Virus record (IMG/VR): IMGVR_UViG_3300016476_001554
Location: 7,123-71,122 of that record
Origin: a virus
Taxonomy: Duplodnaviria; Caudoviricetes
DNA length: 64,000 nucleotides
Strand: one strand, 5' to 3'
The notes below the pieces were generated by a model that was given only the letters and a program-made list of their open reading frames with translations, was not told where the DNA came from and made no database searches. Position 1 is the stretch's first letter; each line of letters starts with the position of its first letter. The translations under genes and the position numbers were made by a program. This document shows, one piece after another, positions 18,774-38,162 of this stretch.

Positions 18774-21700
18774 TTATTGTATTGCCAATATTTCAGCTAA
18801 AGTTGTGTTATTATTTATTTTTACATTATTAAGAGCAAAAAAACCAATAATACTATTTAAATAATTATTACTCAATCTAGGGCCTGTTGCATACAACAAT
18901 AAATATTGACCCAGTGTACCAGTATAATTAAATTTAAACCCTGACACACACTTACCTAAACCTGTTCCAGATTCACTATCATAACTTCCCCTATAAATAT
19001 CTGTACCTATAAAATGAGTTTGATTTAAATGGTTTTCCTGTCTGGCTACAGCCCTATCCCTTTTATATGCCGCTTGGTATATATAATTAAATAAACTTTT
19101 GATACCATTTTCTAATCTTAATTGATTAGAGCTAGCTCCACTATCGGTATTTCCTATATTACCAGGATTTTTAGTAGTATATGCCTTAGCTCCAGGATAA
19201 AAACCTTCATGTATAGCTTGAGCTATTGCCAGAAGCTTAAACCCTCTAGTTTGATTTTCATAATCTTTTTTAATTATCGGCATAATTTCAGCTATAACAT
19301 ATTTTTGTTGTTTTCCGTCTTTATTATTAAATCTAACACCAGCTATAGTTATATCAGATTTAATTGGGAAATTACTTCCTGTTGCAAGACCTTGATTGGC
19401 TAAAGGCGCTGGGTTCGTACAATCACCTGCTCTCACAGGAGTAATACCATCATCTCTTTGACCGCCTGTTAAATCCTGTTGTGCGGCATCAAATATTTCC
19501 ACACCTCCATCAATACCTATCGCATAAGTAGGTGCAACCCTAGTTGTATTAACAGCTCTACCTCTTAAGTCATCTGACTCTACAGTTGCCTCAACAACAG
19601 ATAAACCAGCTAAAGAATCTAAAGTTACTGGTTTTATAGCAGCCAACTCACCAGCAGAAAACCTCATTCTAATACCTTCAGCACTAGTTTTCATATCATT
19701 TGGAGTTATATTATGCTTAACATTAATAACTTGATATATACCATTAAACAACGGAATACTATTTAAATAAAAATATTGCATAGGAAATATCTGAGCATTT
19801 CCAATCATATCAAAATTGGCAGTATAACTTCTTCCTTCCATCACAGGAAGCTGAGAACAATCTGTAGCTATTTTTTTATGCGGATTATCATTATCTGTAG
19901 CTCTTTGATTGCTGATTATTGATTCTGCTGTAGTTTTTGTTTCATAAGAATCTACACTTAAATTTGTAAAAACTTTATTATCTGGAGACCCCAACTTAAC
20001 CTCATAAGCTGTCTGACTTAAACTAGATATTCCATAATCTTCAACTAGTGTAGATTTACTTTGATTAATTGATTTAACTCTAGATTCAGGAGTAGGATTA
20101 AACATTACATAAAATAAATTCTGCAACTTAACTTTAGTTGTTATACTTGGTTTAAAAACTTCTTCATAATCATTAAAATTTCCATTACCAGGTATTGGAA
20201 CAAACATAAAATTGTTTTTTTTACACAACTGCTGAAACATATTTAAAACAGTTGTATTTCCATCCACTTGATATAACGGGTCTAAGTTAATTATTGAATT
20301 TTTTATATCTACATTATTTTTCTCACTTAATGGATAATCATAAACAAATACATTTGTATCCAATCCACTTATTTGCGTTTTTTTATCTACACCTCTTACA
20401 GAATAATGTCTTTTATTATCTTTTGGATCTGCTGATCCGTAACGATTTTCTAATGTACTAGCTATAGAATTTATTGGAATAGGAGTAAAATTATCTGTAG
20501 AATCTAATGCATCATATTTAGAATCATCAAACAACAAAGACTCCCATTGATGATATAGTGTATGAAATTGTTTATAGATTAAATCTCTATTTTCAATAGC
20601 CTGACCTAAAACGTCTGAAATTATCTGATTTTTTTCTTGCTCAACAACAGACATTTTATTTAATACAATATTACACATTCGCTTTATAGAAGCTCTATGG
20701 TTTACACCTGAAGTACTTTTTAAAAAAGGAGCAAAAACTAAACCTTGATCGTCTGATAGTGGTGCCATAGCTACAGCCACAGCTAAATTATTAGCTGGAA
20801 TTTGCTTATTATAAGAATTAATTACAGAATCAGATGGAACTATTTTTGCATCCTTTGGATATATAACTCTATCCTCCCACTTATCTCCACTAGACTCAAA
20901 TAGTTCAGTTAAAGGATTTTCAATTTCTAAATAATTAATAACAGCAAAAGCAAATCTTTCGTTTATAAATTTTATTCTACCTAATGGTTCTGTAGAATTG
21001 CCTGCCAAAATTTGAGTAATTGTACCCCCTGAATTTGTAGGATCATTTTGAGCCTCTGAACCTGTTGGGTAATATGTATCTATAGGCACAATTCCAAACA
21101 AAGGTTTTTGACCACTAACCGAACCTAAAAGACCAGTTGCGTCAGGATCTTCATTTCTAGCCTCATTATCACTAACTGCATTATTTGCTTCTTTTGCCTT
21201 TGTAGCATCCCCACCTCTAAACAACACAAATGTAAAATCATCAGTAACTGTGTCAGTTTTTGGAACTCTATATAATATATCATTATTAAACACAGCTTGT
21301 GCTTGCATTTTTGATCTTGATATAAACGCTGAATTTGATTTGTCGTAACCAACTTCATCTAAATCTGGAGTAGTTTTTTTTCCAAAAACATAATCATAAA
21401 CATCAAATATATCCCAAGTTACACTTTTATCAGATAAATCAACTTGAACATTTCTTTTCGCAGAACTTGGTATCCCTTGATTAAATTCTACACCTTCTAA
21501 ATCACCATCTGGCTTTCCATCACTACCAAGCACTTTTGTGCCATCGTCAGAAATTAATCTCACCCAATAATAACAAAACTTTTTTAATAAAATATATTCC
21601 GACTCATCCATTTCAGCCAACATATCCGTAGTAATGTTTTCCATATCCGAAGCTGCAAGTTCTAAAACCTCATCTATAGAAGCTCTATCAAAATAAAAGT

Positions 21701-23237
21701 TGTCGTACCAACCTGGATAGTTTGGGTCATTACTTCTAACTAAAAAAGCTATAATTCCAGCTCTCACCATAATGTTTTGAGCTATATTTCTAAAAAAAGG
21801 CTTATACGGATTTCCTTTAGGGGCTTCAATATTTATAATTCTCCTTACTAACTTATCATTATCTTGTAAAACACCTCTCTTGTCATCTTTTACCAAATCC
21901 TTAGCTACACCTTGACTAACAGCAGTAATAAATCTATCAACAAAACTTAACTCAAACTCCTCAACTCCAACACCTTCTCCTATTGCTGGAATTTCAGTTC
22001 CAGTTACTGGGTCTACTTTTAAAGGGTATTGCTTTCCTATAATTTGTTGTTTTTTTACTAAAGAATTTCTGTCATTTTTATACTTATCATAACCCCTAGC
22101 TCCATATTCCAAAATTTTACCCATAATATAACCAGAATCCCTTCCAATTTGTTGAAATATTTGTCCAATAGTTATTTTTTCTAATTTACTTTTAGTAGAA
22201 TCATAAACTCTCTTTTTTATAGCATCTTCAATAACTTTAATATTATCATCAACCTGTTTCAATCTTTTTCTTACTTCCTCTTGCTTGAATGCGCCACTAC
22301 TGAAATCTACAGAATCTAATGAAATACCTTGACTACCTCTTGACCCTATTGTCGCATTCAATAACAAAAACGTATTAACCTTTCTGAGTGCATCAGCGTT
22401 CCCTCCAGTATATTCTTTTATTTTTTCAATAGAGTTTATAGATGAGTTTCTAGGAGTTGGAAATGTAATTGTATGAAAGTTAATAGAGTTTGCGCCATCT
22501 TTTGTAGATTTTACTTTTGAACCTCCTGCTGTACCATCTATTTTTTCATCAAAATTTATTATTTTACTATAACAAATAGCCTCTACTATTCTATTCGTTT
22601 TTATTAAATTCATTTGCTGTAGAAGAACATCAAATTGTTTTGTTACCTCTTTTGTTTTTGCATCAGCCTTAATACCTATTTTAATTAAATCAAAAATAGT
22701 TTGCTGTTTCTTAAATTCAGAAGGAGGTAATTCATCTCTTTTTAATCCTTTTACTGCTAATAAAAACAAAAAAGGCAAATCACCCATAAAACCCCACTGA
22801 CTCGGAATAAACTCACACTTTATCTCATAACTTCCATCATCTTTATATGAAGTTGATGTTTGCTTTAAATTAAGAACCCAAGAAACTTGCCTACCTAAAT
22901 ACCCTTTAAATGTGAATAAAAATTTAGGTGGCGGCCAATTAAATAAAACAGAATAATTAGGCACTTCTTCAGATACCATTTGTTTTCCAAAAACAGCATT
23001 TCCATATAAATCTTTAAACGTAATAGTCACTATAGGCTGCAAAGAAGCATTCACTTCTACATCTATATTTGTTATACCGAAACCTATATTTTTTCTAAAG
23101 AAACCAGTAGTAAATATTTTACGACCCATAAAGTCATATTGACTACCGTCAACTATAGCAGTCAATCTACCATCCAAATAAAAACCAGGATCTTTAATTA
23201 AAAATTCGGTTTTTTCTGCTTTTATTATACCTCCCAT
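18774..23237 (-). CDS. Giant baseplate-hub-like paralog 1 with C-terminal lysozyme-like domain
   Basis: Shared body with paralogs 2 and 3; hub-like IGNAQIFP...FNGIYQVINVKHNIT segment; C-terminal HEGFYPG...KNPGNIG. Confidence 0.65.
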   Translation of the reverse strand: MGGIIKAEKTEFLIKDPGFYLDGRLTAIVDGSQYDFMGRKIFTTGFFRKNIGFGITNIDVEVNASLQPIVTITFKDLYGNAVFGKQMVSEEVPNYSVLFNWPPPKFLFTFKGYLGRQVSWVLNLKQTSTSYKDDGSYEIKCEFIPSQWGFMGDLPFLFLLAVKGLKRDELPPSEFKKQQTIFDLIKIGIKADAKTKEVTKQFDVLLQQMNLIKTNRIVEAICYSKIINFDEKIDGTAGGSKVKSTKDGANSINFHTITFPTPRNSSINSIEKIKEYTGGNADALRKVNTFLLLNATIGSRGSQGISLDSVDFSSGAFKQEEVRKRLKQVDDNIKVIEDAIKKRVYDSTKSKLEKITIGQIFQQIGRDSGYIMGKILEYGARGYDKYKNDRNSLVKKQQIIGKQYPLKVDPVTGTEIPAIGEGVGVEEFELSFVDRFITAVSQGVAKDLVKDDKRGVLQDNDKLVRRIINIEAPKGNPYKPFFRNIAQNIMVRAGIIAFLVRSNDPNYPGWYDNFYFDRASIDEVLELAASDMENITTDMLAEMDESEYILLKKFCYYWVRLISDDGTKVLGSDGKPDGDLEGVEFNQGIPSSAKRNVQVDLSDKSVTWDIFDVYDYVFGKKTTPDLDEVGYDKSNSAFISRSKMQAQAVFNNDILYRVPKTDTVTDDFTFVLFRGGDATKAKEANNAVSDNEARNEDPDATGLLGSVSGQKPLFGIVPIDTYYPTGSEAQNDPTNSGGTITQILAGNSTEPLGRIKFINERFAFAVINYLEIENPLTELFESSGDKWEDRVIYPKDAKIVPSDSVINSYNKQIPANNLAVAVAMAPLSDDQGLVFAPFLKSTSGVNHRASIKRMCNIVLNKMSVVEQEKNQIISDVLGQAIENRDLIYKQFHTLYHQWESLLFDDSKYDALDSTDNFTPIPINSIASTLENRYGSADPKDNKRHYSVRGVDKKTQISGLDTNVFVYDYPLSEKNNVDIKNSIINLDPLYQVDGNTTVLNMFQQLCKKNNFMFVPIPGNGNFNDYEEVFKPSITTKVKLQNLFYVMFNPTPESRVKSINQSKSTLVEDYGISSLSQTAYEVKLGSPDNKVFTNLSVDSYETKTTAESIISNQRATDNDNPHKKIATDCSQLPVMEGRSYTANFDMIGNAQIFPMQYFYLNSIPLFNGIYQVINVKHNITPNDMKTSAEGIRMRFSAGELAAIKPVTLDSLAGLSVVEATVESDDLRGRAVNTTRVAPTYAIGIDGGVEIFDAAQQDLTGGQRDDGITPVRAGDCTNPAPLANQGLATGSNFPIKSDITIAGVRFNNKDGKQQKYVIAEIMPIIKKDYENQTRGFKLLAIAQAIHEGFYPGAKAYTTKNPGNIGNTDSGASSNQLRLENGIKSLFNYIYQAAYKRDRAVARQENHLNQTHFIGTDIYRGSYDSESGTGLGKCVSGFKFNYTGTLGQYLLLYATGPRLSNNYLNSIIGFFALNNVKINNNTTLAEILAIQ

Positions 23238-23258
23238 TATTCAATTTTAAAATAAATT

Positions 23259-26200
23259 TTACCAAGTATCATCACTAAATCTTTTATCTCTAGGGTGTTC
23301 TGTTTCACCTATAGACCAATGCCACCACTCACCAGAAATCCTTCTTAAACCTGCATTATATAGCGCTTGATATATTGGTCCGTGATTTCGTATGTCCTTA
23401 CGATTAAAGGAGCTTTGCTCGATATCCATTGCCTGCCCTCTAACGTGATAACCCGAGCAAGGCTCAGCAACATTAGCTGGTTTTTTACTAGCTGGATAAG
23501 TTTTTCCATTTTTTACCCAAGATTTACCTGCTTTATAATTTTCAAGAGCAACTAAATATGACTCACGAGCTTTCTTCTGAAATTCAAAACTCCTATATGT
23601 ATCACCAATAGATAAACTAATACCCAAAGATTTAAGAGCCAAATAGGCGTTTTCTACAGCTCTTACAAACTCAGCTTTACCTTGTATTTTATGTCCATAA
23701 GCATCTGGTACCCATGAAGATTTTACAATAGCACCTGGCAATACATTTGGTAAAGGAGGACATTGTTCTAAACTTCCCGCATTTGGATCACCTGAATCTA
23801 CAGCAACTGGATTACTAAACGGAGGTGTATAAGACAATCTTTCTTTCACATCTCTACTTTTAAGTTTATCCGCTTCTAAACTGCTAATATCAACATCTAA
23901 ATTTGCTAAACTTTCTAATGTTATAGGTTTTATTCCAGCTTCTGTATTTTTAGAAAATCTCATCCTAATACCCTGTGCTTTAGTTGTCATATCATTAGGA
24001 GTAATACTATGGTTTACTTTTAATGTTTGATATAAACCATTAAAAAGCGGAATACTATTTAGATAAAAATATTGGAATGGGTATATTTGAGCATTACCAA
24101 CCATTTCAAATGTAGTTTTACAACTCCTACCCTCCATAACAGGAAGAAGAGAACAATCTGTAGTCACTTTTTTATTTTGATTTTCATTATCTGTTAGTCT
24201 TTGTAAATTCACAATACTTTCTGCAGTTGGCTTATTTTCATAAGTTTCTATATCTATAGATTTAAAAATTTTATTAAAAGGAGAACCAACTTGAACCTCC
24301 ATAGCATCAGCTGTAATTTCTACTTCCCCGTTCTGAGATAATGATGAAAAATCGTTATTATCCAATTTTGTTCTAGATTCAGGAGTAGGACTAAACATGA
24401 CGTAAAATAAATTCTTCAATTCAACATTTGTAGTTATTTTAGGAGTAAAAACCTCAGAACAATCGTTAAAATTTCCATTACCAGGTATTGGTACAAACAT
24501 AAAATTATTTTTTGCACACATTTGCTGTATAATATTTAATACAGTCGTATTACCATTTGGTTTATACATAGGCTCAATGTTTACTATTGAATTTTTTACA
24601 TTTAGCTTAGTTGTATTATTTAAAGGATAATCATAAACAAAAGTGCAATTATTATATGAATTAACAGATGCTACCCTATTTCCAGAAGTAGGAGATTTGT
24701 GTTGACTATCTGCACCAAATCTATTTTCTAACGCACTTACTATCTCGCCAGTTTTTAATTTTATATAAGAACCATTTATTTTATCATCACTAGCATCTGT
24801 ATATAACAAACTTTCCCATTGGTGATAAAGAATATTAAATTGCTTATACAAAGCATTTTTTCCTTCTTCTGCCTTACCTAAAACTTGAGATACTATTTGA
24901 TTTTTTTCTTCTTCTAGCTTAGAAAATTTATCTAATATGATTTCGCACATTTTTTTTATGCAAGCTGCATGATTTCTTCCAGATGTTGTTTCATAGAAAA
25001 TACCAAAAACTAAACCTTTATCTCCAGTATATGTATGAAATGCAACTGATACAGCACTATTTGTTGCTGGTATCTGTTTTTCATAATTAGTTATAGGTTC
25101 ATTTGCATTTACAAACACAGTATCTGTAGGATATACACAATCAGCCATCCACGCTGATTCACTATCCCAAGAAGAAATACCTGGATTTGCCATATCAGCA
25201 TATTTTAGAAGTGCCACAGAAGCTCTTTCGTTCATAAATTCAATTCTACCCAACACTGTGCCGTTATTGTCATTATACGTATCTATTGGCACATAACCTT
25301 TAAGATTTGGCAAACCAGTAAATATCCCACCTTCATCAGCATTTGAATTTCTAGCTTCTGAATCTGAATTAGAACTATTCACTTCTTTTACTTTTGTTGC
25401 GTCTACTCCTGTAAATATAACAAAAGCAAAATCATCTTTTACCTTTGTCCCATCTGGAACTCTATATAAAATACCATTATTGTAAATTGCTTGCGCTTGT
25501 AAAGAACCAGAGTCTATATATTTAAAATTAGAATTATCTATAGAATTTTTTGGTCCTACACCCCCAAACGCCATAGTATAAATCTCTTTTAATGTCTTTT
25601 TTGTTTTTGATGATTTATCTACAATGACACCTTTGTTTAATGTGCTAGATGGAATATTATCGCCAAAACCTACTTTAGGTGCATCAAAAGCAACACTGCC
25701 ATTATCATTTAATATTTTAGTACCATCATTACTAACAAAATTTTTCCAAAAAGTACAAAATTGCTTGAGTTGAATCGCTTCCTCTTCGTCCATTTCAGAA
25801 AGCATAGAAACACTAATATTTTCCATATCAGATGTAGCTAAAGACGTAACCTCCTCAACAGACTCTCGGTCTATCATAAAAGCGTCGTAATCACCTGGAT
25901 AGTTTGGGTCATTACTTCTCGTTAAGAACGATATAATACCAGATCTTACCATTACATTTTGTGCTATATTTCTAAAAAAAGGTCTATATGGATTATCCTT
26001 TGGACCTTCCACATTATTTACTCTTTTTACTAACACGTTGTTCGTAGAAGCCTGACCTGATTCATTTGTAGTTGTTATTAAATCTTTTGCAACACCCTCG
26101 CTTATTGCTGTTACAAACTGATTTACAAAAGCCATTTCATATTTATCAACACCATAACCTTCAGCTGGAACTTCCTCTTTTTTATCTCCTTTTATCATTA

Positions 26201-27395
26201 GAGGATAATACTTGTTTATAATAGCTTCGCTTTCAACAGCGCTATCTCTATCTGTATTATTTACATAACCCTCTTCTCCTGCTTTTAATATTCTACCGAT
26301 TAAATATCCAGAATCTCTTGCTAAATGTTTAAATATTTCACCTATAGTTATTTTACTTAGCTGAGATTTTGATGATTCATAAACCCTACTTTTTATCGCT
26401 TCTTGAATAACTCTTATGTTATCATCTATTGCACTAGTTCTTTGTCTGGATGCAACTTCTTCATACACACCACCATTGAAATTTATAGAGTCTAAAGAAA
26501 CACCCAAAGGGGATATGCCTCCTATTTTTGCATTTAACAATAAATATGTATTCACTTTCCTTAATGCTTCTGCGCTTGTTGATGTATATGCCTTTATTTT
26601 TTCTACAGAATCTATTCTACTATCAGAAGGTTTATTAATAGTAATTGTGTTAAAATTTAATGAGCCACTTTTTTTTATTTTATTTTTACCTACAGTACCA
26701 TCTATTTTTTCGCCTAATCTTATTAATCTACTATAAGCTAAAGCTTCCACAATTCTACCAGACTTAATTAAAGTCATTTGTTGAAGTAGGTTGTCAAATT
26801 CTCTAGAAACTTCTTTAGTTTTAACTTCTACTCTTCTACCTATCTTAATTAAATCAAAAACACTTTTAAATTCACTAAACTCACTACTATTCAATTCTTT
26901 CTTTTTTAAACCCTTAACAGCTAACAAAAAAAGAAATGGAAGATCCGCAAAAAAACCCCATTGATTTGGAACAAACTCACACTTTATATCATAACTCCCA
27001 TCTTGCTGGTAAGTTACCGATGTTTGTTTAAGCGTTAACAACCAAGACACTTGATTACCTAAATACCCTTTAAATGTAAATAAAAATTTAGGCGGAGGCC
27101 AATTAAATAAGACTTTATAATTACCATAATTCGTTCCTTGATTTTTCCCAAACATTACATTTCCATATAAATCTTTAAAAGTTATAGTTATAATTGGATG
27201 TAAATTTGTGTTTAATTCAATATCTATATTAGTTATTCCAAAACCGATATTTTGCCTAAAAAATCCTGTTGTAAATATTTCTTTACCCATAAAATCATAA
27301 GGACTACCATCTACCAAGGCAGTAAGCCTTCCATCAAGGTAAAAGCCTTTGTCGCTGATTTTAAAAGGTATGTCTTTGGGTGAAATTTTTGGCAT
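23259..27395 (-). CDS. Giant baseplate-hub-like paralog 2 with C-terminal M15 (VanY-like) peptidase
   Basis: Start moved to MPKISPK (27395); DTYRS..Q, SGYHVRGQAMDI, EWWHW. Confidence 0.72.
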   Translation of the reverse strand: MPKISPKDIPFKISDKGFYLDGRLTALVDGSPYDFMGKEIFTTGFFRQNIGFGITNIDIELNTNLHPIITITFKDLYGNVMFGKNQGTNYGNYKVLFNWPPPKFLFTFKGYLGNQVSWLLTLKQTSVTYQQDGSYDIKCEFVPNQWGFFADLPFLFLLAVKGLKKKELNSSEFSEFKSVFDLIKIGRRVEVKTKEVSREFDNLLQQMTLIKSGRIVEALAYSRLIRLGEKIDGTVGKNKIKKSGSLNFNTITINKPSDSRIDSVEKIKAYTSTSAEALRKVNTYLLLNAKIGGISPLGVSLDSINFNGGVYEEVASRQRTSAIDDNIRVIQEAIKSRVYESSKSQLSKITIGEIFKHLARDSGYLIGRILKAGEEGYVNNTDRDSAVESEAIINKYYPLMIKGDKKEEVPAEGYGVDKYEMAFVNQFVTAISEGVAKDLITTTNESGQASTNNVLVKRVNNVEGPKDNPYRPFFRNIAQNVMVRSGIISFLTRSNDPNYPGDYDAFMIDRESVEEVTSLATSDMENISVSMLSEMDEEEAIQLKQFCTFWKNFVSNDGTKILNDNGSVAFDAPKVGFGDNIPSSTLNKGVIVDKSSKTKKTLKEIYTMAFGGVGPKNSIDNSNFKYIDSGSLQAQAIYNNGILYRVPDGTKVKDDFAFVIFTGVDATKVKEVNSSNSDSEARNSNADEGGIFTGLPNLKGYVPIDTYNDNNGTVLGRIEFMNERASVALLKYADMANPGISSWDSESAWMADCVYPTDTVFVNANEPITNYEKQIPATNSAVSVAFHTYTGDKGLVFGIFYETTSGRNHAACIKKMCEIILDKFSKLEEEKNQIVSQVLGKAEEGKNALYKQFNILYHQWESLLYTDASDDKINGSYIKLKTGEIVSALENRFGADSQHKSPTSGNRVASVNSYNNCTFVYDYPLNNTTKLNVKNSIVNIEPMYKPNGNTTVLNIIQQMCAKNNFMFVPIPGNGNFNDCSEVFTPKITTNVELKNLFYVMFSPTPESRTKLDNNDFSSLSQNGEVEITADAMEVQVGSPFNKIFKSIDIETYENKPTAESIVNLQRLTDNENQNKKVTTDCSLLPVMEGRSCKTTFEMVGNAQIYPFQYFYLNSIPLFNGLYQTLKVNHSITPNDMTTKAQGIRMRFSKNTEAGIKPITLESLANLDVDISSLEADKLKSRDVKERLSYTPPFSNPVAVDSGDPNAGSLEQCPPLPNVLPGAIVKSSWVPDAYGHKIQGKAEFVRAVENAYLALKSLGISLSIGDTYRSFEFQKKARESYLVALENYKAGKSWVKNGKTYPASKKPANVAEPCSGYHVRGQAMDIEQSSFNRKDIRNHGPIYQALYNAGLRRISGEWWHWSIGETEHPRDKRFSDDTW

Positions 27396-27486
27396 AAATT
27401 TTATTTTAAATAAATATAGTTTTTTAGAATACACTTGTAAAGCGTTTCTGTACTAAGTATAAATATTTTCAATTAAATTTTATACA

Positions 27487-30400
27487 TTAAGGGAAAAAAC
27501 TTGCATATTTATTAACCCAATTATCAAAATTTGGCATATCATATACAACATTATCTTGATAATTATACGCAAAACCAAAGACATTATTACCTGGTATTCT
27601 CTGCACAAAAGATACTCTTTTTCCAGTTGGATCAAAAGGCCCAGAGTTAGTTTTCTTGTTTTTTACCTCTACCGTACCTTGACTTTGAGCTTGAAAATCC
27701 GTCCTCCCTTGTATAAAATCTTTAGCAGCAGTTCTATAAGCTATATTCGTTATACCTTCATATGTATCTTTAAGCATTTTTTCAGCAGTAGACTGAGTTA
27801 CACCCTTAGAGTTCATAACTGCTATTAAAGCACTTTGTTTATCGTTTATAGCGTTCCATTGAGGTTTGTTTTTAAATGTAGGTTCATATTGACCATTTGA
27901 GCACACAATAGATTTTATAGACTCAGAATTACTATACTTTTTACAACCCAACCTATTATAAATAGACTGAGCTACGTCTGCTCTAGATTGCCCAGCGCCA
28001 GCCTCCATACTACAAAGAGCAATCAAGGCCCAAAAATCAGCATCATCACCCTGCGCTATTTGACCACTACCACTTACATTAGCTACAATAGTACTAGCAT
28101 TAACAGCTCTTTGAAATAAACCGAAACTAAAAACAGGAGGAGATTGTGGTTTTGTTCTTTGAATATCTTTTCTATTTTCCAAATCACTACTATCCAATGA
28201 CTCAATTTTTAAATCTAAATTTTCAAAAGTTTCTAAAGTTATTGGTCTCATAGCAGCGGTTCCTCCCAAATTAACTCGCATTCTAATACCTTCAGCATTA
28301 GTAGACATACTATTCGGAGTTATGGAATGTCTTACTTTTCTAATTTGATATAAGCCATTAAAAAGAGGGATGCTATTTAAATAAAAATACTGCATAGGGA
28401 AAATTTGAGCATTTCCAACCATAGAAAACCCAGCCATATATGACTTACCTTCCATAACTGGCAAAGTAGAACAATCAACACCCATTTGATTATTTGTATT
28501 ATCTTTATCTGTAAGTGTTTGTAAAGTTATTACACTTTCTGCAGTTGGTTTATTTTCAGCACTATCTATAGTTACACTTTTAAATATTTTATTTTCTGTA
28601 GAACCCACTTTAACTTCAAACGCATCTGTATTTAATACAGGCGTTTTAGCTTGTGATAAAACAACATTACTTGTATTTGATAAAGTCGTTCTGGACTCTG
28701 GAGTAGGATTAAAAAGCACATAAAATAAATTCTGAATTTTTTGAGGTGTAGATCTATGAGGAGTAAAAACCTCAGAGTAATCACTAAAATTACCATTTCC
28801 TGGAATTGGAATAAAACTAAAATTATTTTTTGCACATATTTGCTGAATCATATTTAGAACTGTTGTATTTCCATCAGGATTATACATAGGTCCTATATTT
28901 ATTAACGAATTTCTAACATCTATATCTGCAACATCACTCACAACACAATCATAAACAAACACATTAGAATCTAAATTTTGTATCTTAGTTTTTCTATCTT
29001 CTTTTTGTATAGAAACGTGTCTAGAATCTGCATTTTCTCCTCCATATCTATTCTCTAAAACTGAAACTATTTGATTTGATTTAATCTGATTGCTATCTGA
29101 ACATAAATTATCAGAAGTAGGGTCATCATACATCAAAACTTGCCATTGATGAAATAGAGTATGGAATTGTTTATACAAAGCTGTTTTACCCTCCTCTGCT
29201 TTTCCTATAACATTTGATATAACTTTATTTCTATTTTCCTCTAACGTACCCATTTTTTCTAATAAAATAGAGCACATTTTTTTTATACAAGATCTATGAT
29301 TTCTTCCTGATGTTGTTTCCATAAAAGGTCCAAAAACCAACCCTTTATCTTGAGACAGAGGAGAAAAAGCTATAGAAACAGCTAAGTTAGATAAAAAAAC
29401 TTCATGGTTATTACCTGTATATGTATTTGGGTCAACTATTTTACTTCTTTTGTCATAAACAACATTGGATAGCCATTTTTCTTCATTTTTCCAAGTATCA
29501 GAACCAGGATTTGCCATTTCATTAAAGTTCAAAACAGCAACTTGAAATCTTTTATTAGTTAAAGCCACCCTACCTAATTCCCCTCCAAGAGATATAGGTT
29601 GCATACTAAACGGATCTAATACAGTAGTTGACGTTGTGCCTGATGTTGAACCAGTTGTTGACATACCTGTAGTGGGCGCTAAAGATTCTGAAGGATAATA
29701 AGTATCTATAGGTACAATACCAAGCAATGCCTTATCTAAATCTTCTGAAGATAACCTATCATCACTTACAGCGTTACGAGCCTCTTTGGCGTAAGTAGCA
29801 TAAAACCCTTCAAAAAGAACAAAAGAAAAATCATCCAAAAAATCACTATTTGTGGTTGCACTAGTACTTGAACTTGTGTCTATTTCTATAGCAGTCTTAG
29901 GTACTCTATATAATATTCCATTATTATAAACAGCTTGAGACTGCATAGATTTTTCATTTATATACTTTGCACTTGAATTATCTATTACATCGCCATCTTC
30001 ATTGTTTGACCCTTGCTTAGACCCAAAAGTCTCTGCATATATAGTTTTTAAATCTTTTTTTATATTAGCAGCTTTATCTACTATTACATCTCTATTTAAT
30101 AAACTACTACTAATAGATTCACGAAATCCATTTGTAGGGATTGCGCCTGCCTTATCTCCATTTGAGTCTAAGTAATAGAGACCATCTTCTGTCATCAACC
30201 TCGTCCAATAGTTGCAAAATTGTCTAAGTTTTATATACTCATCTGATGTTAATTGTGATAATAAATTTTCGGATATATTTTCCATATCAGCCGCAGCTAA
30301 CTCTAATACTTCCTCTACAGAAGTCCTATCAATACCCCAAAAAGTATCATAATCACCTGGTAAATTTGGATCATTACTTCTTGTCAAGAAAGCTATAATA

Positions 30401-31869
30401 CCAGATCTAATCATAATATTTTGGGCTATATTTCTAAAAAAAGGTCTGTACGGATTTCCTTGTGGAGCTTCAACATTATTGATTCTCTTTATTAATTTCA
30501 ATTCATCTTGAGTTCCAGATGCTTGGTCATTTTGAACCAAATCCAGTGCGACACCTTCGCTTATGGCTGAAACAAATTCATTTATAAAAGCCATTTCATT
30601 TTCTTCTACACCATATCTTTTACAAGGTATTTCATCTCCAGTATTATCTTCTATCTCTAAAGGAAAGTTTGTTCCTATAATTTCATGTGATTTAGCAGCC
30701 AAAACTCTTCCAGGGTTATTTTCTAAACCTTTAGAACCAGCTTCTAAAATCTTACCCATTATATATCCAGAATCTTGAGTTAGTTGTTTAAAAACCTCCC
30801 CTATAGTTACTTTTCTTAATTGAGTTTTAGAACTAGAATATGCCCTAGCTTTAATAGCATCTTCAATTAAAGAAATATTATTTGATATAACCGTAGACCT
30901 CTCTCTTGATTTGTCTTCCTTATATCCACCAGAGTCAAAATTTACAGCATCAACAGTTGATACTCCAGCGCTTGAAGCACCCCCAATTGAAGCATTTAAA
31001 AATAAAAAAGTATTCATTTTTCTTAAAGCTTCTGCGCTAGTAGAAGAATAATTTTTTATCTTATCTATGGTATTATAATCAGTAGGCGCTTTTATAGTTA
31101 CAGATTGAAATTTTTTTTCTGAAGTACCTTTTATTTTTAACCTACCTGCTGTACCATCTATTGTTTCTCCAAGTTTTAATATTCCACTATAACATAAACC
31201 TTCAACTATTCTTCCCGATTTAATCAACGTCATTTGTTGAAGTAAATTATCAAACTCCCTAGAAACCTCTTTTGTTTTAACTTCTATTTTTTTACCTATT
31301 TTAATTAAATCAAAAATAGTTTGAACTTTTTTGAATTTAGTATCTGGCATTTCTCTTCTCTTTAAACCTTTAACAGCCAATAAAAAAAGAAATGGAAGAT
31401 CCCCAAAAAAACCCCATTGATTTGGTACAAACTCACATTTTATATCATAACTTCCATCTTGTTGATAATTAGTAGAAGTTTTTTTTAAATTCAACATCCA
31501 AGAAACTTGTTTTCCTAGATATCCTTTGAATGTGAATAAAAATTTAGGTGGCGGCCAATTAAATAAAACAGAATAATCTGGAACTTCTCGGTCTATATTT
31601 TTTTTTCCAAATACAACATTACCATACAAATCTTTAAATGTTATAGTAACTATAGGTTGCATAGATTGATTAATTTCTATATCTATATTCGTTATTCCAA
31701 AACCTATATTGTTCCTAAAAAACCCTGTTGTAAATATTTTACGACCCATAAAGTCATAACATGAACCATCAACGATGGTAGTTAATCTACCATCTAAATA
31801 AAAACCGTCATCGCTAATTTTAAATGGTACACTATTGGGTGATATTAATTTACTTCCAGTAGTTTGCAT
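27487..31869 (-). CDS. Giant baseplate-hub-like paralog 3 with C-terminal SleB/Hydrolase_2-like domain
   Basis: ALCSMEAGAGQSRADVAQSIYNRL...IKSIVCSNGQYEP. Confidence 0.72.
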   Translation of the reverse strand: MQTTGSKLISPNSVPFKISDDGFYLDGRLTTIVDGSCYDFMGRKIFTTGFFRNNIGFGITNIDIEINQSMQPIVTITFKDLYGNVVFGKKNIDREVPDYSVLFNWPPPKFLFTFKGYLGKQVSWMLNLKKTSTNYQQDGSYDIKCEFVPNQWGFFGDLPFLFLLAVKGLKRREMPDTKFKKVQTIFDLIKIGKKIEVKTKEVSREFDNLLQQMTLIKSGRIVEGLCYSGILKLGETIDGTAGRLKIKGTSEKKFQSVTIKAPTDYNTIDKIKNYSSTSAEALRKMNTFLFLNASIGGASSAGVSTVDAVNFDSGGYKEDKSRERSTVISNNISLIEDAIKARAYSSSKTQLRKVTIGEVFKQLTQDSGYIMGKILEAGSKGLENNPGRVLAAKSHEIIGTNFPLEIEDNTGDEIPCKRYGVEENEMAFINEFVSAISEGVALDLVQNDQASGTQDELKLIKRINNVEAPQGNPYRPFFRNIAQNIMIRSGIIAFLTRSNDPNLPGDYDTFWGIDRTSVEEVLELAAADMENISENLLSQLTSDEYIKLRQFCNYWTRLMTEDGLYYLDSNGDKAGAIPTNGFRESISSSLLNRDVIVDKAANIKKDLKTIYAETFGSKQGSNNEDGDVIDNSSAKYINEKSMQSQAVYNNGILYRVPKTAIEIDTSSSTSATTNSDFLDDFSFVLFEGFYATYAKEARNAVSDDRLSSEDLDKALLGIVPIDTYYPSESLAPTTGMSTTGSTSGTTSTTVLDPFSMQPISLGGELGRVALTNKRFQVAVLNFNEMANPGSDTWKNEEKWLSNVVYDKRSKIVDPNTYTGNNHEVFLSNLAVSIAFSPLSQDKGLVFGPFMETTSGRNHRSCIKKMCSILLEKMGTLEENRNKVISNVIGKAEEGKTALYKQFHTLFHQWQVLMYDDPTSDNLCSDSNQIKSNQIVSVLENRYGGENADSRHVSIQKEDRKTKIQNLDSNVFVYDCVVSDVADIDVRNSLINIGPMYNPDGNTTVLNMIQQICAKNNFSFIPIPGNGNFSDYSEVFTPHRSTPQKIQNLFYVLFNPTPESRTTLSNTSNVVLSQAKTPVLNTDAFEVKVGSTENKIFKSVTIDSAENKPTAESVITLQTLTDKDNTNNQMGVDCSTLPVMEGKSYMAGFSMVGNAQIFPMQYFYLNSIPLFNGLYQIRKVRHSITPNSMSTNAEGIRMRVNLGGTAAMRPITLETFENLDLKIESLDSSDLENRKDIQRTKPQSPPVFSFGLFQRAVNASTIVANVSGSGQIAQGDDADFWALIALCSMEAGAGQSRADVAQSIYNRLGCKKYSNSESIKSIVCSNGQYEPTFKNKPQWNAINDKQSALIAVMNSKGVTQSTAEKMLKDTYEGITNIAYRTAAKDFIQGRTDFQAQSQGTVEVKNKKTNSGPFDPTGKRVSFVQRIPGNNVFGFAYNYQDNVVYDMPNFDNWVNKYASFFP

Positions 31870-31877
31870 AAAAAAAA

Positions 31878-32189
31878 CTATTGATTTGCGTAATCAATTA
31901 TTTGTTGTGTTATTTCTGAAAGAACATCATTTATTGGATATGGCACTCTTATTATTGTTTGAGCTGGTATATCGAACTCCACAAAATATTGAGGGTTTGC
32001 CCACATGATTACTCTCCATAAAGTCTCATCTTGATAAAGTTGCCCTGCAATATAATCTAATCTAATTTTATCTTTATTATATTCAATATATTTGTCAGTT
32101 TCCCTTCTAGATATAGTAATTGTTGGCATATCCTTCAATTCTCTAGGATTATTTGGGTCTCTTAAATATTTATAAAAATCATATGGCAT
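31878..32189 (-). CDS. LysM-like baseplate wedge protein (P2 gpX / T4 gp53-like)
   Basis: RLDYIAGQLYQDETLWRVIMWANP...IPAQTIIRVP. Confidence 0.8.
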   Translation of the reverse strand: MPYDFYKYLRDPNNPRELKDMPTITISRRETDKYIEYNKDKIRLDYIAGQLYQDETLWRVIMWANPQYFVEFDIPAQTIIRVPYPINDVLSEITQQIIDYANQ

Positions 32190-32245: not shown

Positions 32246-35200
32246 TTAAATATTGTTATTAGATAGAATACTTGTATTAAGAGGAGGACCAAGAGGGTTT
32301 TCAAGCTCTGGTTTTCCATCTAAACCTATATTTTGAGACACAACATTAGCTAACCTCTGCTTATCTTGTTCAAGCCTTTCCAATTCTGCAGCTCCAGCGT
32401 CAAATTCTTCTTCTAATTGTTTATCAGCTGCTAATCTCTGCCTTTCTAATTCATCATTTCCAGCTTGTGTTATAGCTTCTTTCCTTTCTTTTCTATTTAA
32501 TTTTTTCTTTTTATCTGCTTTATCATCTTCAGAGTCATTATCACGTCTACCTAAAAAATATACACCTCCAACATCGGTAGAGAGAACAGGTCTACCTTCT
32601 CCTCCATATCTACCTACAAAATCAAAGCTTAATGTGACTTTAGCCCACAAAGGTTGTACACTTCCTAAATCTAAAGCCCAAGGAGCTTCTGAATAATCTA
32701 CAGAAACCGTTTTAACTACAATATCATGATCCCACCAATCACCTAATTTAATATGCGCCACAGGAGGTTTGGTAAATGAATACCCAGACCCTTGAGATGC
32801 TTCCGCTGGCTTTGTTAATTTAGCTAAAAAGTCCATTCTATTTGCAAAATCCGTTTTAGAGCCAGAAAAATAAGCTGGCTGAAATGTTAAATTTTGAATC
32901 ATAGCATCCAATCTCTTAATTGAATTTTCAGCTTTAGAGTCTATTTCTCCATTTTTTTCAGACTTAACAGATGTCATAAAATCATAAACATTTCTATTTG
33001 TGTTTGATACATTATTATACAAATAAGAAAGGTTGTCTGTACTTATTTTTGAATCTAGTTTAGAACCTAAGTTTAGTTTTTCGCCAGTAAGCTCTTCGTA
33101 TATATCTTTTTTATTAGCTGTTTCCCCAGCTTGGTCATTAGAATTGGCGTTATTGAAATTTAAATTCTCTAACAATTCACTTTTTTTATCATTAATATCC
33201 CTCAATAGCTCAGAAGAACCAAAATCCTGTAGAGCTACATTAAAAGATTTAGATTCAGAAAAATTTCTATTTATTTTTCTAGTCACTTTCTCATTAGGAT
33301 TATTCCAATCTCTACCCAAAACAACCTCATCGCCATAATCTGTTAACACAAAAAATGATATAGTACCATCTCTTTTAGAATTGTTATAAGTATAAATAGG
33401 CTCTGGTCTTCCTAAAAAATTTATTTCATTCCAGTTCGCTGTATGAGAATCTGAAAAATCTTCAATATAAGCTGGGAAAATAATTGTAGTTCCATTAGAG
33501 TAATTCTTCAATGAAAAAACTAAAGATTTAGCAGAAGGCGGAGCATAAGGATTTCTTATCGTATATCTTTGCTGAGAATAAACTTTTTCATTACCCTTTT
33601 GACTTATTAAAAACTTAGCACCAACTTGATTAGATTGACCTTGAGGGTAATAATTACCAGCTAAAGCAATAGTATCAGAAGCTGATCTAATTGTTTTCAT
33701 TATATACTTAACACCTCTCTCTCCGTTTTCAAACTTATCGTTTGTTAGCGGATTTCCTGCTGTTACCTTAGCCATCATAGATTGAGGCGTTTTAATCCAT
33801 GCATCTTTTTGCCCAGGACCTATACCGCCCTCTGGTCTAATCAACTCTTCTGCAGAACCATTTAAGTATTGATAATTACCATTTGATTCATAAACACCAA
33901 CACTTGGAACTAAATTACCAAATTGTTGAGCTGAAATAGACTGAGTTGGTGTTTTAAAAGCACCTATTGTTTTTTGTATTAAATCCTGAAACCCCTGATC
34001 ATTGTTAGATTCTATATCACCTTTATAACTAGACATTGAAGTTACTGGTTGTATTTTTTGACTATTATATAAGTTTCTGGATAAATTATAATTTCTAATA
34101 GCTTCTGTAATATTACCCTTATGATATGCAGTCAAAACTTGAGCTTCATAAACAGCACCTTGAGTCTGCCAATAACCTCCTTGAGCATTGTCTATTTTTG
34201 TGTAATAAAAACCACCTCCTATATTAGAAGTTTTTTGTTCGTTTGTATTTTCAGTTCTTAAACCATACTTATCTTGTAATGCTGTTGATATAAGTCTAAA
34301 ATTAAAATTTTCTTTTATTTGTCTATCTTGACTTTTTTCAACTGTTGTATCATCTGTAAACAAGTTAACAATAGCTGGTAACGAAAATCCCTCAACATCC
34401 TTTCTAGTAGTAAGTGTATTAGAATTTAACCCTCTTACATATTCAGAACTACCGTAAACATAATCATTCTGAGCAAGTAATTTTACTCCAACTAAACTAG
34501 TAGGATTAAAGAAATATGCTGATTGATAATCACTTGGGTTATTGTAAGAAAAAGACATTAATGGGTTTGGTTGGTTTCTATTTAACAAGAAAGACCTAAA
34601 AACTAAACCTTGTATTCCAACTACAGATAATCCAAGATAACTAAAACTACCTAAAGCATCAAACGTAATTCCAAGATTATTATTTGGATTTAAAGCTAAT
34701 TGATTATCTCTAAAAACACTTGAATCGTTCAATAAATCTGAATTAGTTGATTGATTTGATGCAAGTAATCCATCCTTAATAGGTAATGAGTCTGATAATA
34801 AATCAGAAAATATAGGTACGTTACTATTTAAGTTTGTTTGTAAATAATAAGCTGAATCTGTTAATAAATCTGAATTATTTGGCACATTACTAGATAATTC
34901 ATCTTGCAAATAAGAATAAGAGTCTATTAACAAATCTGAATTATTTGGTACATTATTAGATAAATTTTGGTTTAAATAATACTGAGAAGAAGCTAATATA
35001 TCGTAAGGATTTGGCACGTTAGCAATCATATTATCTAAATAAAAAGCAAAAGAGTCATTTAATAAGTCAATACTCACTGGAACATTATACTTTAAAATAT
35101 CATCTCTCGTTTTATCTGAATCATTTAACAAATCAGTTACTTTAGGTACATTTGAAGCTATTACATTATTTCTCGGTATTTCTGAATCAATTAACAAATC

Positions 35201-36907: not shown

Positions 36908-37081
36908 ATGAAAACAAAAAATTTAACATTTTGTATACCAAAAGAAATCGTGCAAGAATTTGATATTATCTCAAAAGAAACTATGATACCTAAATCTAAA
37001 ATAATTTCTAAATTATTAGAAGAATATATAAAAAATTTCAAAAAAAATGAAAAAATATTCAACAAAAGCATTTATAAGTAA
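36908..37081 (+). CDS. Ribbon-helix-helix (CopG/Arc-like) protein, not in ORF track
   Basis: MKTKNLTFCIPKEIVQEFDIISKETMIPKSKIISKLLEEYIKNFKKNEKIFNKSIYK (57 aa); overlaps endonuclease start. Confidence 0.75.
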   Translation: MKTKNLTFCIPKEIVQEFDIISKETMIPKSKIISKLLEEYIKNFKKNEKIFNKSIYK

Positions 37082-38162
37082 ATGTAAAGAATTTTGGGGA
37101 GAAACTTATAGCTATGAAAACTTAGAATATATTAATTCTAACATACCAATACAAGTAAATTGTTTTAAGCATGGGGAATTTAAGATAAGACCTCTCAAGT
37201 TTATAAAAGGTCGTGGTTGTCCTTATTGTAAAATAAAAAAAACAAATACAAAAAAATTAACAAATGAAGAATTTATTAACCAAGCAAATATCATTCATGG
37301 AAATAAATATAATTATTCAAAAACACTATATGTAAATCAAAAAACAAAAGTAGTTGTTACATGCAAATCTCATGGCGATTTTGAGATTATACCTAATTAT
37401 CACACACATGATAAAGTAGGATGTAAAATTTGTAGTAAAGAAAGAACAATTAAATCAAACTCATATTCTTTTAAAGAGTTTTTAAAAAAAGCAAATATCG
37501 TTCATGGAAATAAATTCTATTATTCAGAAAAAGGGTATGAAAATTTAAATTCTAAAATTAAAATAATATGTCCTAAACATGGAGAATTTGAGCAAAGTGC
37601 ATTTAATCACCTTAGAACGAGTGGCTGTAAACAATGTGGACATTTAAATACTTCTAAAATCCTATCATATACAAAAGAAAGTTTTATTGAAAAGTCTAAA
37701 AAAATACATTTTGACAAGTATAATTATGATTTGGTTTTATATAAAAACTCAAAAGAGAAAGTAAAAATAATTTGCAATAAACATGGAGAATTTAAACAAT
37801 CACCAGCAATGCACCTCCAAGGCCAAGGTTGCCCAAATTGCAACAATTCTTTAGGGGAGAACAGGATATATAATATACTAAAATTAAAAAAAGTAGAATT
37901 TATTCAACAAAAAACTTTTGATGATTGTAAAAATATAAGACCGCTACCTTTTGATTTTTACATACCTAGCAAAAACATTTTAATAGAGTTTCAGGGTATA
38001 CAACATTATGATTATTACCATCATTTTGGCGGTATTATAGGATATAATAACCTAATCAAAAATGATGGTATAAAGAAAAAATACGCATCTGATAACAACA
38101 TAAAGCTAATAGAGATTAAGTACGATGATGATATAGTTGATATTTTAAATAAAATTATTTAA
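37047..38162 (+). mobile_element. Free-standing homing-endonuclease-like gene (DUF723-like Cys/His repeats plus Vsr/DUF559-like nuclease)
   Basis: Four repeats of F...HG.KY.Y...Y.....V.I.C..HGEF......H....GC..C; C-terminal FDFYIPSKNILIEFQGIQHY; antisense to tail genes. Confidence 0.8.

What the first reader, a model, noticed from the sequence alone, without database searches (positions are those of the whole stretch)
18774..31869. Three tandem giant hub paralogs, each ending in a different peptidoglycan hydrolase
Three proteins of about 1380-1490 aa share a collinear body of roughly 1200 aa (e.g. FNWPPPKFLFTFKGYLG, IMVR.GII.FL.RSNDPN.PG, GNAQI.P.QYFYLNSIPLFNG.YQ...V.H.ITPN.M.T.A.GIRMR). That last segment resembles the closing barrel of gp27/GpD/VgrG hubs. 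After a linker the tails are unrelated: lysozyme-like EGFYPG/NPGNI (about 18774-19600), M15 zinc peptidase (about 23259-23880), SleB-like lytic transglycosylase (about 27487-28180). Such hubs are trimers, so three paralogs could build one heterotrimer carrying two glycan cutters and a peptide cutter, or alternative tips for different hosts. This parallels evolved VgrG effectors and is the strongest candidate for an undescribed system here.
Basis: partly seen in the sequence, partly recalled or inferred. Interest (0 to 1): 0.88.

Follow-up and report, generated by a model that had tools for sequence, protein, structure and literature searches.

The report
Triplicated giant tail hub with enzymes
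A fragment of an uncultured giant phage carries three side-by-side copies of the protein that caps the tail tube, each ending in a different cell-wall-cutting enzyme, and their strict co-retention in relatives suggests (unproven) that the normally three-identical-subunit cap is here built from three different subunits.

Summary
Three tandem minus-strand genes (27487-31869, 23259-27395/27434, 18774-23237) encode 1378-1487 aa proteins. They are 53-54% identical over about 1230 aa and have unrelated tails.

The hub idea is supported by fold. An AF2 model of the body (pLDDT 80) matches P1, Mu gp44, T4 gp27, Afp8/PVC8 and VgrG hubs at Z 15-16.5. The N-terminal ~130 aa and C-terminal ~190 aa form the hub. 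An ~800 aa, mostly helical insertion with no known match lies between them. No Pfam or PHROG model sees the body.

The tails:
- M15/VanY-like zinc peptidase: motifs present, and all 11 orthologues hit VanY.
- SleB-like: sub-threshold hits only.
- GH73-like glucosaminidase: fold Z 9, conserved motifs.

Eight related metagenomic genomes keep the same order, small baseplate protein, B, C, A, DNA polymerase. The three bodies fall into three fully supported clades. Sister lineages have one copy in the same slot. Tails are swapped within clades, no genome repeats a tail type, and two genomes keep a tail-less body.

Best reading (about 0.5): a mixed, probably 1:1:1, hub trimer. Giant hubs with exchangeable lysin domains are known; the conserved triplication is the new part.

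The parts
27487..31869 (-). Paralogue B (P0003, 1460 aa): hub body about 28225-31869, then a linker and SleB-like (Hydrolase_2) tail about 27487-28224
   Evidence: clade B in the tree; the tail is shared only with P0023. Pfam Hydrolase_2 E 0.004 (18.1 bits, cut-off 27); phrog_12490 endolysin E 1.5e-4.
23259..27395 (-). Paralogue C (P0002/P0032, 1378 aa from the ATG at 27395): hub body about 23895-27395, M15/VanY-like zinc peptidase tail about 23259-23894
   Evidence: All 11 orthologous tails hit Pfam VanY (best E 1.1e-4) and 10 hit Peptidase_M15. The H-x2-G-x-A-x-D and E-W-W-H motifs are invariant in alignment A3.
18774..23237 (-). Paralogue A (P0001, 1487 aa): hub body about 19602-23237, linker, GH73-like glucosaminidase/lysozyme-superfamily tail about 18774-19313
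   Evidence: Tail alignment A2 has invariant E-G and NPGNIGNTD. AF2 model pLDDT 65.5. VIA wide best hits are GH73 enzymes, Z 9.0 (116 aligned, rmsd 2.8), 7.6 and 7.6, followed by other lysozyme-superfamily enzymes. Atlas lead: PF01832.
26961..27353 (-). N-terminal hub core of paralogue C (model residues 15-145; tube-like barrel domain)
   Evidence: AF2 model. Hub alignments span model residues 15..1147. Tube proteins align to 11-145 alone (ranks 34, 45, 46). 72% of these positions are identical in all three paralogues.
23955..24518 (-). C-terminal hub core of paralogue C (model residues about 960-1147; holds the GNAQ...GIRMR motif)
24519..26960 (-). About 800 aa, mostly helical insertion inside the hub fold of paralogue C (model residues about 146-959); the same position in A and B
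   Evidence: Secondary structure. No solved chain aligns to it above Z about 5.5 in the whole-model search. It is the least conserved part between paralogues: 27-38% of positions are identical in all three for most of it.
31878..32189 (-). 103 aa small baseplate protein (P0279) immediately upstream of paralogue B; the same 103 aa gene precedes the hub(s) in every relative examined
   Evidence: phrog_7145 'baseplate wedge subunit' E 1.7e-7; sequence; synteny. A LysM/gpX-like reading by eye is inference only, since Pfam found nothing.
32246..36826 (-). 1526 aa repeat-rich protein (P0004) upstream of the small baseplate protein; conserved at about 1400-1430 aa in relatives
   Evidence: no family; synteny. 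Its role (tube initiator or tape measure partner) was not tested here.

Best explanation
The three genes encode paralogous subunits of the central baseplate hub of a contractile-tailed jumbo phage. The hub is the trimeric, gp27-type adaptor that closes the tail tube. Each subunit has a conserved hub core made of its N-terminal ~130 and C-terminal ~190 residues. Inside that fold sits an ~800-residue insertion, and a flexible linker leads to one peptidoglycan hydrolase. An ancestral single-copy gene, presumably forming a homotrimer, triplicated in place. The three descendants (A, B, C) are now all required and most likely co-assemble into one mixed hub trimer, probably one of each. On tail contraction the tip would then present three different wall-cutting chemistries at the point of penetration. 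In this phage these are a GH73-like glycosidase, an M15 peptidase and a SleB-like enzyme. Shown: paralogy, hub fold, synteny, the three conserved clades, single-copy sisters and tail shuffling. Inferred: presence in the virion, enzyme activity and co-assembly. Confidence that these are hub proteins carrying wall hydrolases is about 0.9. Confidence in the mixed trimer is about 0.5.
For: - **Paralogy:** 53-54% identity over about 1230 aa.
- **Hub fold:** AF2 pLDDT 80, pTM 0.72. All top Foldseek hits are hubs with probability 1.0. VIA Z is 15-16.5 with 250-290 aligned residues against P1, Mu gp44, T4 gp27, PVC8/Afp8 and VgrG. Thirty-three entries reach Z 8 or more and all are hubs, followed by a drop to 6.
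- **Context:** T4 gp20-type portal, two PF12322 T4_baseplate genes, and a PHROG 'baseplate wedge' gene directly upstream.
- **Copy number:** about 37 distant IMG/VR loci hold one copy each, and only the closest relatives hold tandem copies.
- **Tree:** clades A, B and C each have 100% support and are jointly monophyletic. The branching order inside each clade is the same: the window copy first, then the copy from the 46,040-bp contig.
- **Hub-core tree:** the hub core alone also sorts by clade, so gene conversion is not the cause of its conservation.
- **Synteny:** eight complete trios show the order small protein, B, C, A, DNA polA.
- **Sister lineages:** two have a single hub in the same slot.
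- **Tails:** they are shuffled within clades, and no genome examined has two of one type.
- **Tail-less bodies:** two genomes keep a full body with the tail cleanly deleted (A in L047, C in L053) and no excess branch length relative to their genome-mates.
- **Core conservation:** 72% of hub-core positions are identical in all three paralogues, so the subunits offer nearly the same contact surfaces.
- **Operon structure:** no minus-strand terminator-like site lies between the genes.
Against: - No direct evidence of assembly, stoichiometry or virion presence exists.
- High conservation of the core also fits three separate homotrimers that dock to the same partners.
- Paralogous VgrG hubs can refuse to mix: Serratia VgrG1 and VgrG2 form no heterotrimers under native conditions (PMC4924876).
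- Clade-specific conserved residues could not be mapped onto interfaces because no coordinates were available in the script box.
- No spike or PAAR gene was found in the 71-kb fragment, which is only about 26% of the genome.
- The tail assignments for B and C rest on sub-threshold Pfam scores for the window's own proteins.
Confidence: 0.5

Rival explanations
1. Alternative homotrimeric hubs. Each paralogue forms its own trimer, so a burst contains three kinds of virions, each armed with one enzyme. This would be bet-hedging against hosts with different wall chemistries.
For: Tails are exchanged often within each clade, as expected for host-adaptive modules. In Serratia, paralogous VgrGs define separate assemblies and do not mix. 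About 12% of hub-core positions are clade-specific and conserved, which could enforce self-recognition.
Against: The copy number is fixed at three in all eight complete trios, with no two- or four-copy genomes seen. Two genomes retain a full-length body that has lost its enzyme. As a homotrimer that body would give an unarmed virion and should be lost. The hub core is 72% identical in all three paralogues, which makes exclusion of mixed trimers hard.
Confidence: 0.25
2. Random mixing. The three subunits are interchangeable and assemble in any combination, so virions carry variable enzyme sets with no fixed 1:1:1 order.
For: The hub cores are nearly identical. The three genes are tandem and probably co-expressed. 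Single-copy sisters show that the fold works as a homotrimer.
Against: Interchangeable subunits should tolerate loss of a copy, yet none of the eight trios lacks one. The three clades have stayed distinct with conserved clade-specific residues, notably 30% of positions in segment 1050-1090.
Confidence: 0.15
3. Only one paralogue is the hub. The others have moved to a different place or role, for example an accessory baseplate ring, an ejected protein or a non-virion lysin.
For: The 800-aa insertion and the low-confidence loop at 1050-1090 carry most of the clade-specific residues, which could mean different partners.
Against: All three keep the full hub core under equal constraint, with stem lengths of 0.22-0.24 and similar tip lengths. 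There is no sign of relaxed or divergent evolution in any one clade. A hub fold has no known second site in a tail (own knowledge).
Confidence: 0.1

Closest known systems
Bacillus phage 0305phi8-36 gp147, a 'hyperplastic' homologue of the T4 gp27 hub (Hardies et al. 2007, PMC2147016)
   Same: [quoted passage not shown] Peptidoglycan-degrading domains are attached to it and exchanged between relatives.
   Different: It is a single gene with enzymes at both ends. Here there are three conserved paralogues, each with one C-terminal enzyme, and the extra mass is an insertion inside the hub fold. No sequence similarity was detected: tblastn of P0001 against 50,697 phage records found nothing.
T4 gp27-gp5 cell-puncturing device (PDB 1k28)
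   Same: The gp27 fold matches at Z 15.1 with 289 aligned residues. Three wall-hydrolase domains are carried at the tail tip. The phage has a T4-type portal.
   Different: In T4 the lysozyme sits on the separate spike protein gp5 and all three copies are identical. Here the enzyme is fused to the hub subunit and the three differ.
Tail-associated lysins / hub proteins of Staphylococcus phage 812 (9euf_E), phage NF5 Tal (9m7n_A), and lactococcal Tal
   Same: A hub fold is fused to wall-degrading domains in one polypeptide. Matches are Z 14.7-14.8 with 323-324 aligned residues and Z 11.7.
   Different: Those are single-copy homotrimers. They show no triplication and no 800-aa helical insertion.
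Evolved VgrG proteins of type VI secretion (e.g. V. cholerae VgrG-3 with a peptidoglycan-targeting C-terminal domain; mixed VgrG trimers)
   Same: Paralogous hub subunits each carry a different C-terminal effector. Mixed trimers have been proposed in V. cholerae (own knowledge; mentioned in PMC4453574).
   Different: VgrG is a gp27+gp5 fusion with an OB fold and a beta-helix spike. The alignments here stop at about VgrG residue 351, and the phage proteins pass from the hub straight to a linker and an enzyme. VgrG paralogues are usually dispersed and variable in number, not a fixed tandem trio.
phiKZ tail fibre complex of paralogues gp131-gp135 (PMC13250141)
   Same: It is a precedent in a jumbo phage for paralogues that share an anchoring domain but differ distally and co-assemble in one hetero-oligomer.
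   Different: That is a fibre, not the hub. The phiKZ hub gp101 itself is a homotrimer.

Membership tests
gp27 / P2 gpD / Mu gp44 / VgrG-N type baseplate hub (fold level) | Hub fold with two tube-like barrel domains that give a pseudo-hexameric trimer | tested here: met
   VIA Z 15-16.5, rmsd 2.9-4.4, 250-290 of about 330 residues aligned to P1, Mu gp44, Neisseria and Shewanella Mu-like hubs, T4 gp27, PVC8 and Afp8. All 33 entries with Z 8 or more are hubs. Foldseek probability 1.0.
gp27 / P2 gpD / Mu gp44 / VgrG-N type baseplate hub (sequence families) | Match to a curated hub profile (Pfam Phage_GPD, T4 gp27 families; PHROG hub families) or to a solved hub by sequence | tested here: not met
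   No hub family appears in Pfam at E up to 0.1 or in PHROGs at E up to 0.01 for any of the three. A profile of 45 homologues finds no PDB chain. The family is therefore a separate, uncurated sequence family with the hub fold.
gp27-type baseplate hub | Gene position in the tail module, after the tape measure / tube-initiator genes and a small baseplate protein | tested here: inconclusive
   A PHROG 'baseplate wedge subunit' gene lies directly upstream, and large conserved genes of unknown family lie before it. Neither a tape measure nor a tube initiator was verified.
gp27-type baseplate hub | Partner spike (gp5/gpV-type OB fold plus beta-helix) and PAAR tip | tested here: inconclusive
   PF04717 and PF05488 were not found in the 71-kb record, but CheckV rates the record 26% complete.
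gp27-type baseplate hub | Trimer at the tip of the tail tube in the virion | not testable with these tools
   Needs virion proteomics or cryo-EM. No multimer prediction was available.
Evolved VgrG | gp27-like module fused to a gp5-like OB fold and beta-helical spike, followed by the effector domain | tested here: not met
   VgrG chains align only up to about residue 351, their gp27-like part. In the model the hub's last strands (1120-1145) are followed by short elements and the linker, and the tails are enzyme domains.
Peptidase M15 / VanY (LAS zinc peptidases), tail of paralogue C | Profile match plus zinc ligands H-x(6)-D and a C-terminal H | tested here: inconclusive
   The window protein scores 15.4 bits (VanY, cut-off 25) and 17.2 bits (M15, cut-off 27). 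All 11 orthologous tails hit VanY, best E 1.1e-4. H1317, D1324, E1356 and H1359 are invariant in A3. There is no PDB sequence match.
Hydrolase_2 (SleB/CwlJ-type cell wall hydrolase), tail of paralogue B | Profile match and catalytic Glu near the start of the domain | tested here: inconclusive
   18.1 bits against a cut-off of 27, E 0.004. phrog_12490 endolysin E 1.5e-4. An M-E-A-G segment is conserved with P0023. There is no PDB sequence match, and the tail was not folded.
GH73 N-acetylglucosaminidase (lysozyme superfamily), tail of paralogue A | Lysozyme-like fold with a catalytic Glu; GH73 profile match | tested here: inconclusive
   No Pfam hit. A moderate model (pLDDT 65.5) has its best matches to three GH73 structures (Z 9.0, 7.6, 7.6), and nearly all further hits are lysozyme-superfamily enzymes. 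E-G and NPGNIGNTD are invariant. The Atlas lead is PF01832, present in 33% of one neighbouring cluster.

The most novel reading that the evidence does not exclude
The hub of this jumbo-phage clade is an obligate, ordered A-B-C heterotrimer. A gene triplication would then have broken the three-fold symmetry of the tail tip, so that one particle carries three different peptidoglycan-cleaving chemistries. The enzyme modules are reshuffled among the three fixed chassis. If the earlier scan note of a hub triplication in an unrelated phage also holds, this solution arose more than once.
Probability: 0.35. Interest if true: 0.8.

Novelty: new variant of a known kind. Interest (0 to 1): 0.66.

Why it matters
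In every solved contractile or long-tailed phage and tailocin matched here, the hub appears as a single hub chain; for phiKZ the paper states a homotrimer outright, for the others this is my own knowledge. A conserved three-gene hub would be the first phage case of a symmetry-broken tail tip. It would show how a phage can bring a glycosidase, a peptidase and a second glycan-cutter to one penetration site. The family is large (1916 representative clusters) and is absent from Pfam and PHROGs, so naming it would annotate a giant 'hypothetical protein' in many metagenomic jumbo phages. The fixed chassis with swapped tails is also a natural catalogue of virion-associated lysins. It gives functional leads for unknown domains such as DUF5675, which fills the enzyme slot in 19 of 21 clade-B proteins.

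Tried and rejected
- **Phage records:** tblastn of P0001 and megablast of the whole region against 50,697 phage records found no match.
- **Solved structures by sequence:** phmmer of the three tails and profiles A1, A3 and A4 gave nothing usable. The single 0.069 hit to RhsFi is noise.
- **Foldseek on the P0001 tail model:** nothing below E = 3. Only the exhaustive VIA search gave the GH73 matches.
- **Search for a fold for the 800-aa insertion:** the whole-model VIA wide run gave nothing above Z about 5.5 in that range.
- **Gene conversion as the cause of the conserved core:** rejected. The tree of residues 15-145 alone still sorts by clade.
- **Internal or ejection proteins or a tape measure (from size and lysin tails):** rejected by the hub fold.
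- **gp6/gp7-like wedge proteins (from the position after a 'wedge' PHROG gene):** rejected by the hub fold.
- **Literature:** searches found no phage hub heterotrimer. The heterotrimers in phiKZ and in mycobacteriophage Mysterious are wedge or accessory proteins.
- **Failed alignment:** a first alignment of 86 sequences failed in the tool, so 45 were used instead.


Full report
**What is there**

The window is 64 kb of a 71-kb IMG/VR virus record. CheckV rates the record 26% complete. It has about 30% G+C, and nearly all genes lie on the minus strand. Three consecutive minus-strand ORFs fill 18774-31869:
- P0003 (27487-31869, 1460 aa)
- P0002 (23259-27434 from a GTG; the ATG at 27395 gives the 1378-aa form P0032 that the protein collection holds)
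- P0001 (18774-23237, 1487 aa)

BLASTP gives 53-54% identity over 1227-1254 positions for each pair. Similarity ends about 30 residues after the GIRMR motif, and the last 180-260 residues are unrelated.

**What the body is**

Neither Pfam nor PHROGs recognises the body, and a 45-sequence profile finds no solved structure by sequence. An AlphaFold2 model of P0002 residues 14-1200, built on that alignment, is good: mean pLDDT 80, pTM 0.72.

Foldseek against the PDB returns only baseplate hubs and VgrG proteins, at probability 1.0 with modest E-values. The structural aligner gives Z 15-16.5 with 250-290 aligned residues. The matches include the hubs of P1, Agrobacterium phage 7-7-1, Mu (gp44) and its Neisseria and Shewanella relatives, T4 gp27, PVC8, Afp8, phage 812, R-type pyocin and VgrG1.

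In the unbiased search of 48,161 chains, all 33 entries with Z of 8 or more are hubs, and the next matches are tube proteins at Z 6 or less. These alignments span model residues about 15 to 1147. The N-terminal ~130 residues and the C-terminal ~190 residues therefore fold together into one complete hub, and about 800 mostly helical residues are inserted between them. Nothing solved matches the insertion in the whole-model search, but it was not folded alone.

**Context**

- The portal is of the T4 gp20 type. The nearest isolates are Microcystis phage Mel-JY01 and Flavobacterium phage immuto.
- Two tandem genes carry Pfam T4_baseplate.
- A 103-aa gene that hits a PHROG 'baseplate wedge subunit' family lies eight bases upstream of P0003.
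- Downstream, the module ends at a DNA polymerase A gene.
- A close relative sits on a 393.5-kb contig, so these are jumbo phages.
- No spike or PAAR gene is in the fragment. This says little, given how incomplete the record is.

**The tails**

*Paralogue C.* Sub-threshold VanY and Peptidase_M15 hits. All 11 orthologous tails hit VanY (best E 1.1e-4) and 10 hit Peptidase_M15. The zinc-site motifs H-x2-G-x-A-x-D and E-W-W-H are invariant.

*Paralogue B.* A sub-threshold Hydrolase_2 (SleB) hit, E 0.004, and a PHROG endolysin hit, E 1.5e-4.

*Paralogue A.* No family hit. Eight homologues share invariant E-G and NPGNIGNTD motifs. A moderate model (pLDDT 65.5) is closest to three GH73 glucosaminidases (Z 9.0, 7.6, 7.6). 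Almost all other matches are lysozyme-superfamily enzymes. The protein atlas points the same way.

Confidence is moderate for B and A, and no activity has been shown.

**The family and the triplication**

The body family is large: 1916 representative clusters at E of 0.001 or better. Members elsewhere end in M23, VanY, Phage_lysozyme2, C39-like, GH19-like, M74, SLT or DUF5675 domains.

In IMG/VR, about 37 loci with more distant members (44% identity or less) hold a single copy, most with up to 10 kb of flank on each side. Only the closest relatives have tandem copies.

A tree of 95 bodies resolves three clades, each with 100% support: A with P0001, B with P0003 and C with P0002. Together they are monophyletic. 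In each clade the window's copy branches first and the copy from one 46-kb contig branches next, so the three paralogues have diverged in parallel. The hub core alone gives the same three clades, which rules out gene conversion.

Eight related genomes covered across the locus all show the order 1400-aa protein, 103-aa protein, B, C, A, DNA polymerase A. The two nearest sister lineages have exactly one hub in that same slot, with an M23 or a DUF5675 tail. The triplication therefore happened once, in place, and all three copies have been kept since.

**Tail shuffling**

- Clade B carries DUF5675 in 19 of 21 members and the SleB-like tail in two, including the window's.
- Clade C carries the M15-like tail in 10 and Phage_lysozyme2 in 10.
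- Clade A has at least five tail types.
- No genome examined has two tails of one type.
- In the 46-kb contig the tail type usual for A sits on C, and A has no tail.
- In another genome C has no tail.
- In both tail-less cases the deletion is clean and the tail-less body shows no extra divergence compared with its genome-mates.

**Reading**

A hub is a trimer, and there is one per tail. A single-copy gene in the same slot in sister phages, a fixed number of three, equal constraint on all three bodies, and retention of bodies that have lost their enzyme all argue the same thing: each body is structurally needed. This fits a mixed trimer better than three optional alternatives.

The hub core is the most conserved part between paralogues. 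In residues 15-145, 72% of positions are identical in all three, against 27-38% in most of the insertion. The subunits therefore present nearly the same surfaces to each other and to shared partners.

None of this proves co-assembly. Paralogous VgrG hubs provide a cautionary case: in Serratia they do not mix. I put the mixed trimer at about 0.5 (ordered 1:1:1 at about 0.35), separate homotrimers at 0.25, random mixing at 0.15 and a non-hub role for some copies at 0.1.

**Comparison with what is known**

Hubs or spikes that carry wall hydrolases are long known, for example T4 gp5, lactococcal and staphylococcal tail-associated lysins, and phage 812. A giant gp27 homologue with exchangeable peptidoglycan-degrading domains was described for Bacillus phage 0305phi8-36 in 2007.

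The proteins here are not evolved-VgrG-like in architecture, because no gp5-like module lies between hub and enzyme. Literature searches found no phage with a hub made of different subunits. The phiKZ hub is a homotrimer, although its fibres are hetero-oligomers of paralogues.

An earlier, unchecked note of this scan (e1-1241154) reports three tandem hub genes with different wall modules in another phage, with relatives holding three or one. By its description it has a different architecture (enzymes at the N-terminus), and the sequence look-up found no similarity to this window. If that note holds, the triplication is recurrent.

**Verdict**

The heterotrimer remains a well-motivated, testable hypothesis. 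It is a new variant of a known kind, a tail hub carrying lysin domains.

Noticed in passing
L045 10001-14227, and clade-B proteins P0005-P0024: DUF5675 (PF18925) fills the enzyme slot of the hub in 19 of 21 clade-B proteins and in a single-copy sister (P0067). This predicts a peptidoglycan-degrading role for this domain of unknown function. The protein atlas places it near Tlde1 and YkuD (L,D-transpeptidase-fold) clusters at scores of 0.88-0.90, which is a lead only.
   Followed up: partly
L047 14381-18025 and L053 9318-12911: Two relatives carry a hub paralogue with the enzyme tail cleanly deleted (A of 1214 aa, C of 1197 aa). The body is kept intact and in place.
   Followed up: partly
window 23955-24290 (model residues about 1050-1090 of paralogue C, and the same segment in A and B): A low-confidence loop inside the hub core holds the highest density of residues that are conserved within each clade but differ between clades: 30% of positions, against 6-16% elsewhere. 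It is a candidate paralogue-specific contact segment.
   Followed up: partly
window 37047-38162 (+): An HNH/homing endonuclease gene on the opposite strand lies between two large tail genes. It is absent at this spot in several relatives (L045, L051). Other relatives have an opposite-strand DUF723 gene nearby (L049, L052), which looks like mobile endonuclease traffic in the tail module.
   Followed up: no
window 44488-45531 and 45531-46406 (-): Two tandem paralogues match Pfam T4_baseplate (PF12322, E about 2e-11). The downstream-encoded one has a C-terminal zinc ribbon.
   Followed up: no
window 32246-36826 (-): A 1526-aa protein whose N-terminal half is a degenerate array of short repeats (DLL.DS ... 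N.P type). No family hit was found. It is conserved at about 1400-1430 aa directly upstream of the hub module in all relatives.
   Followed up: no
window 38155-41601 (-): A 1148-aa protein with no family hit lies in a stretch of raised G+C (0.39 against about 0.30). It is conserved at about 1137-1145 aa in relatives and is a possible tape measure, which was not tested.
   Followed up: no
whole record (G000) and L045: The 71-kb record is rated 26% complete, and a close relative lies on a 393.5-kb contig. The clade therefore appears to consist of uncultured jumbo phages with a T4-type portal and no isolate relative at the level of the hub gene.
   Followed up: partly
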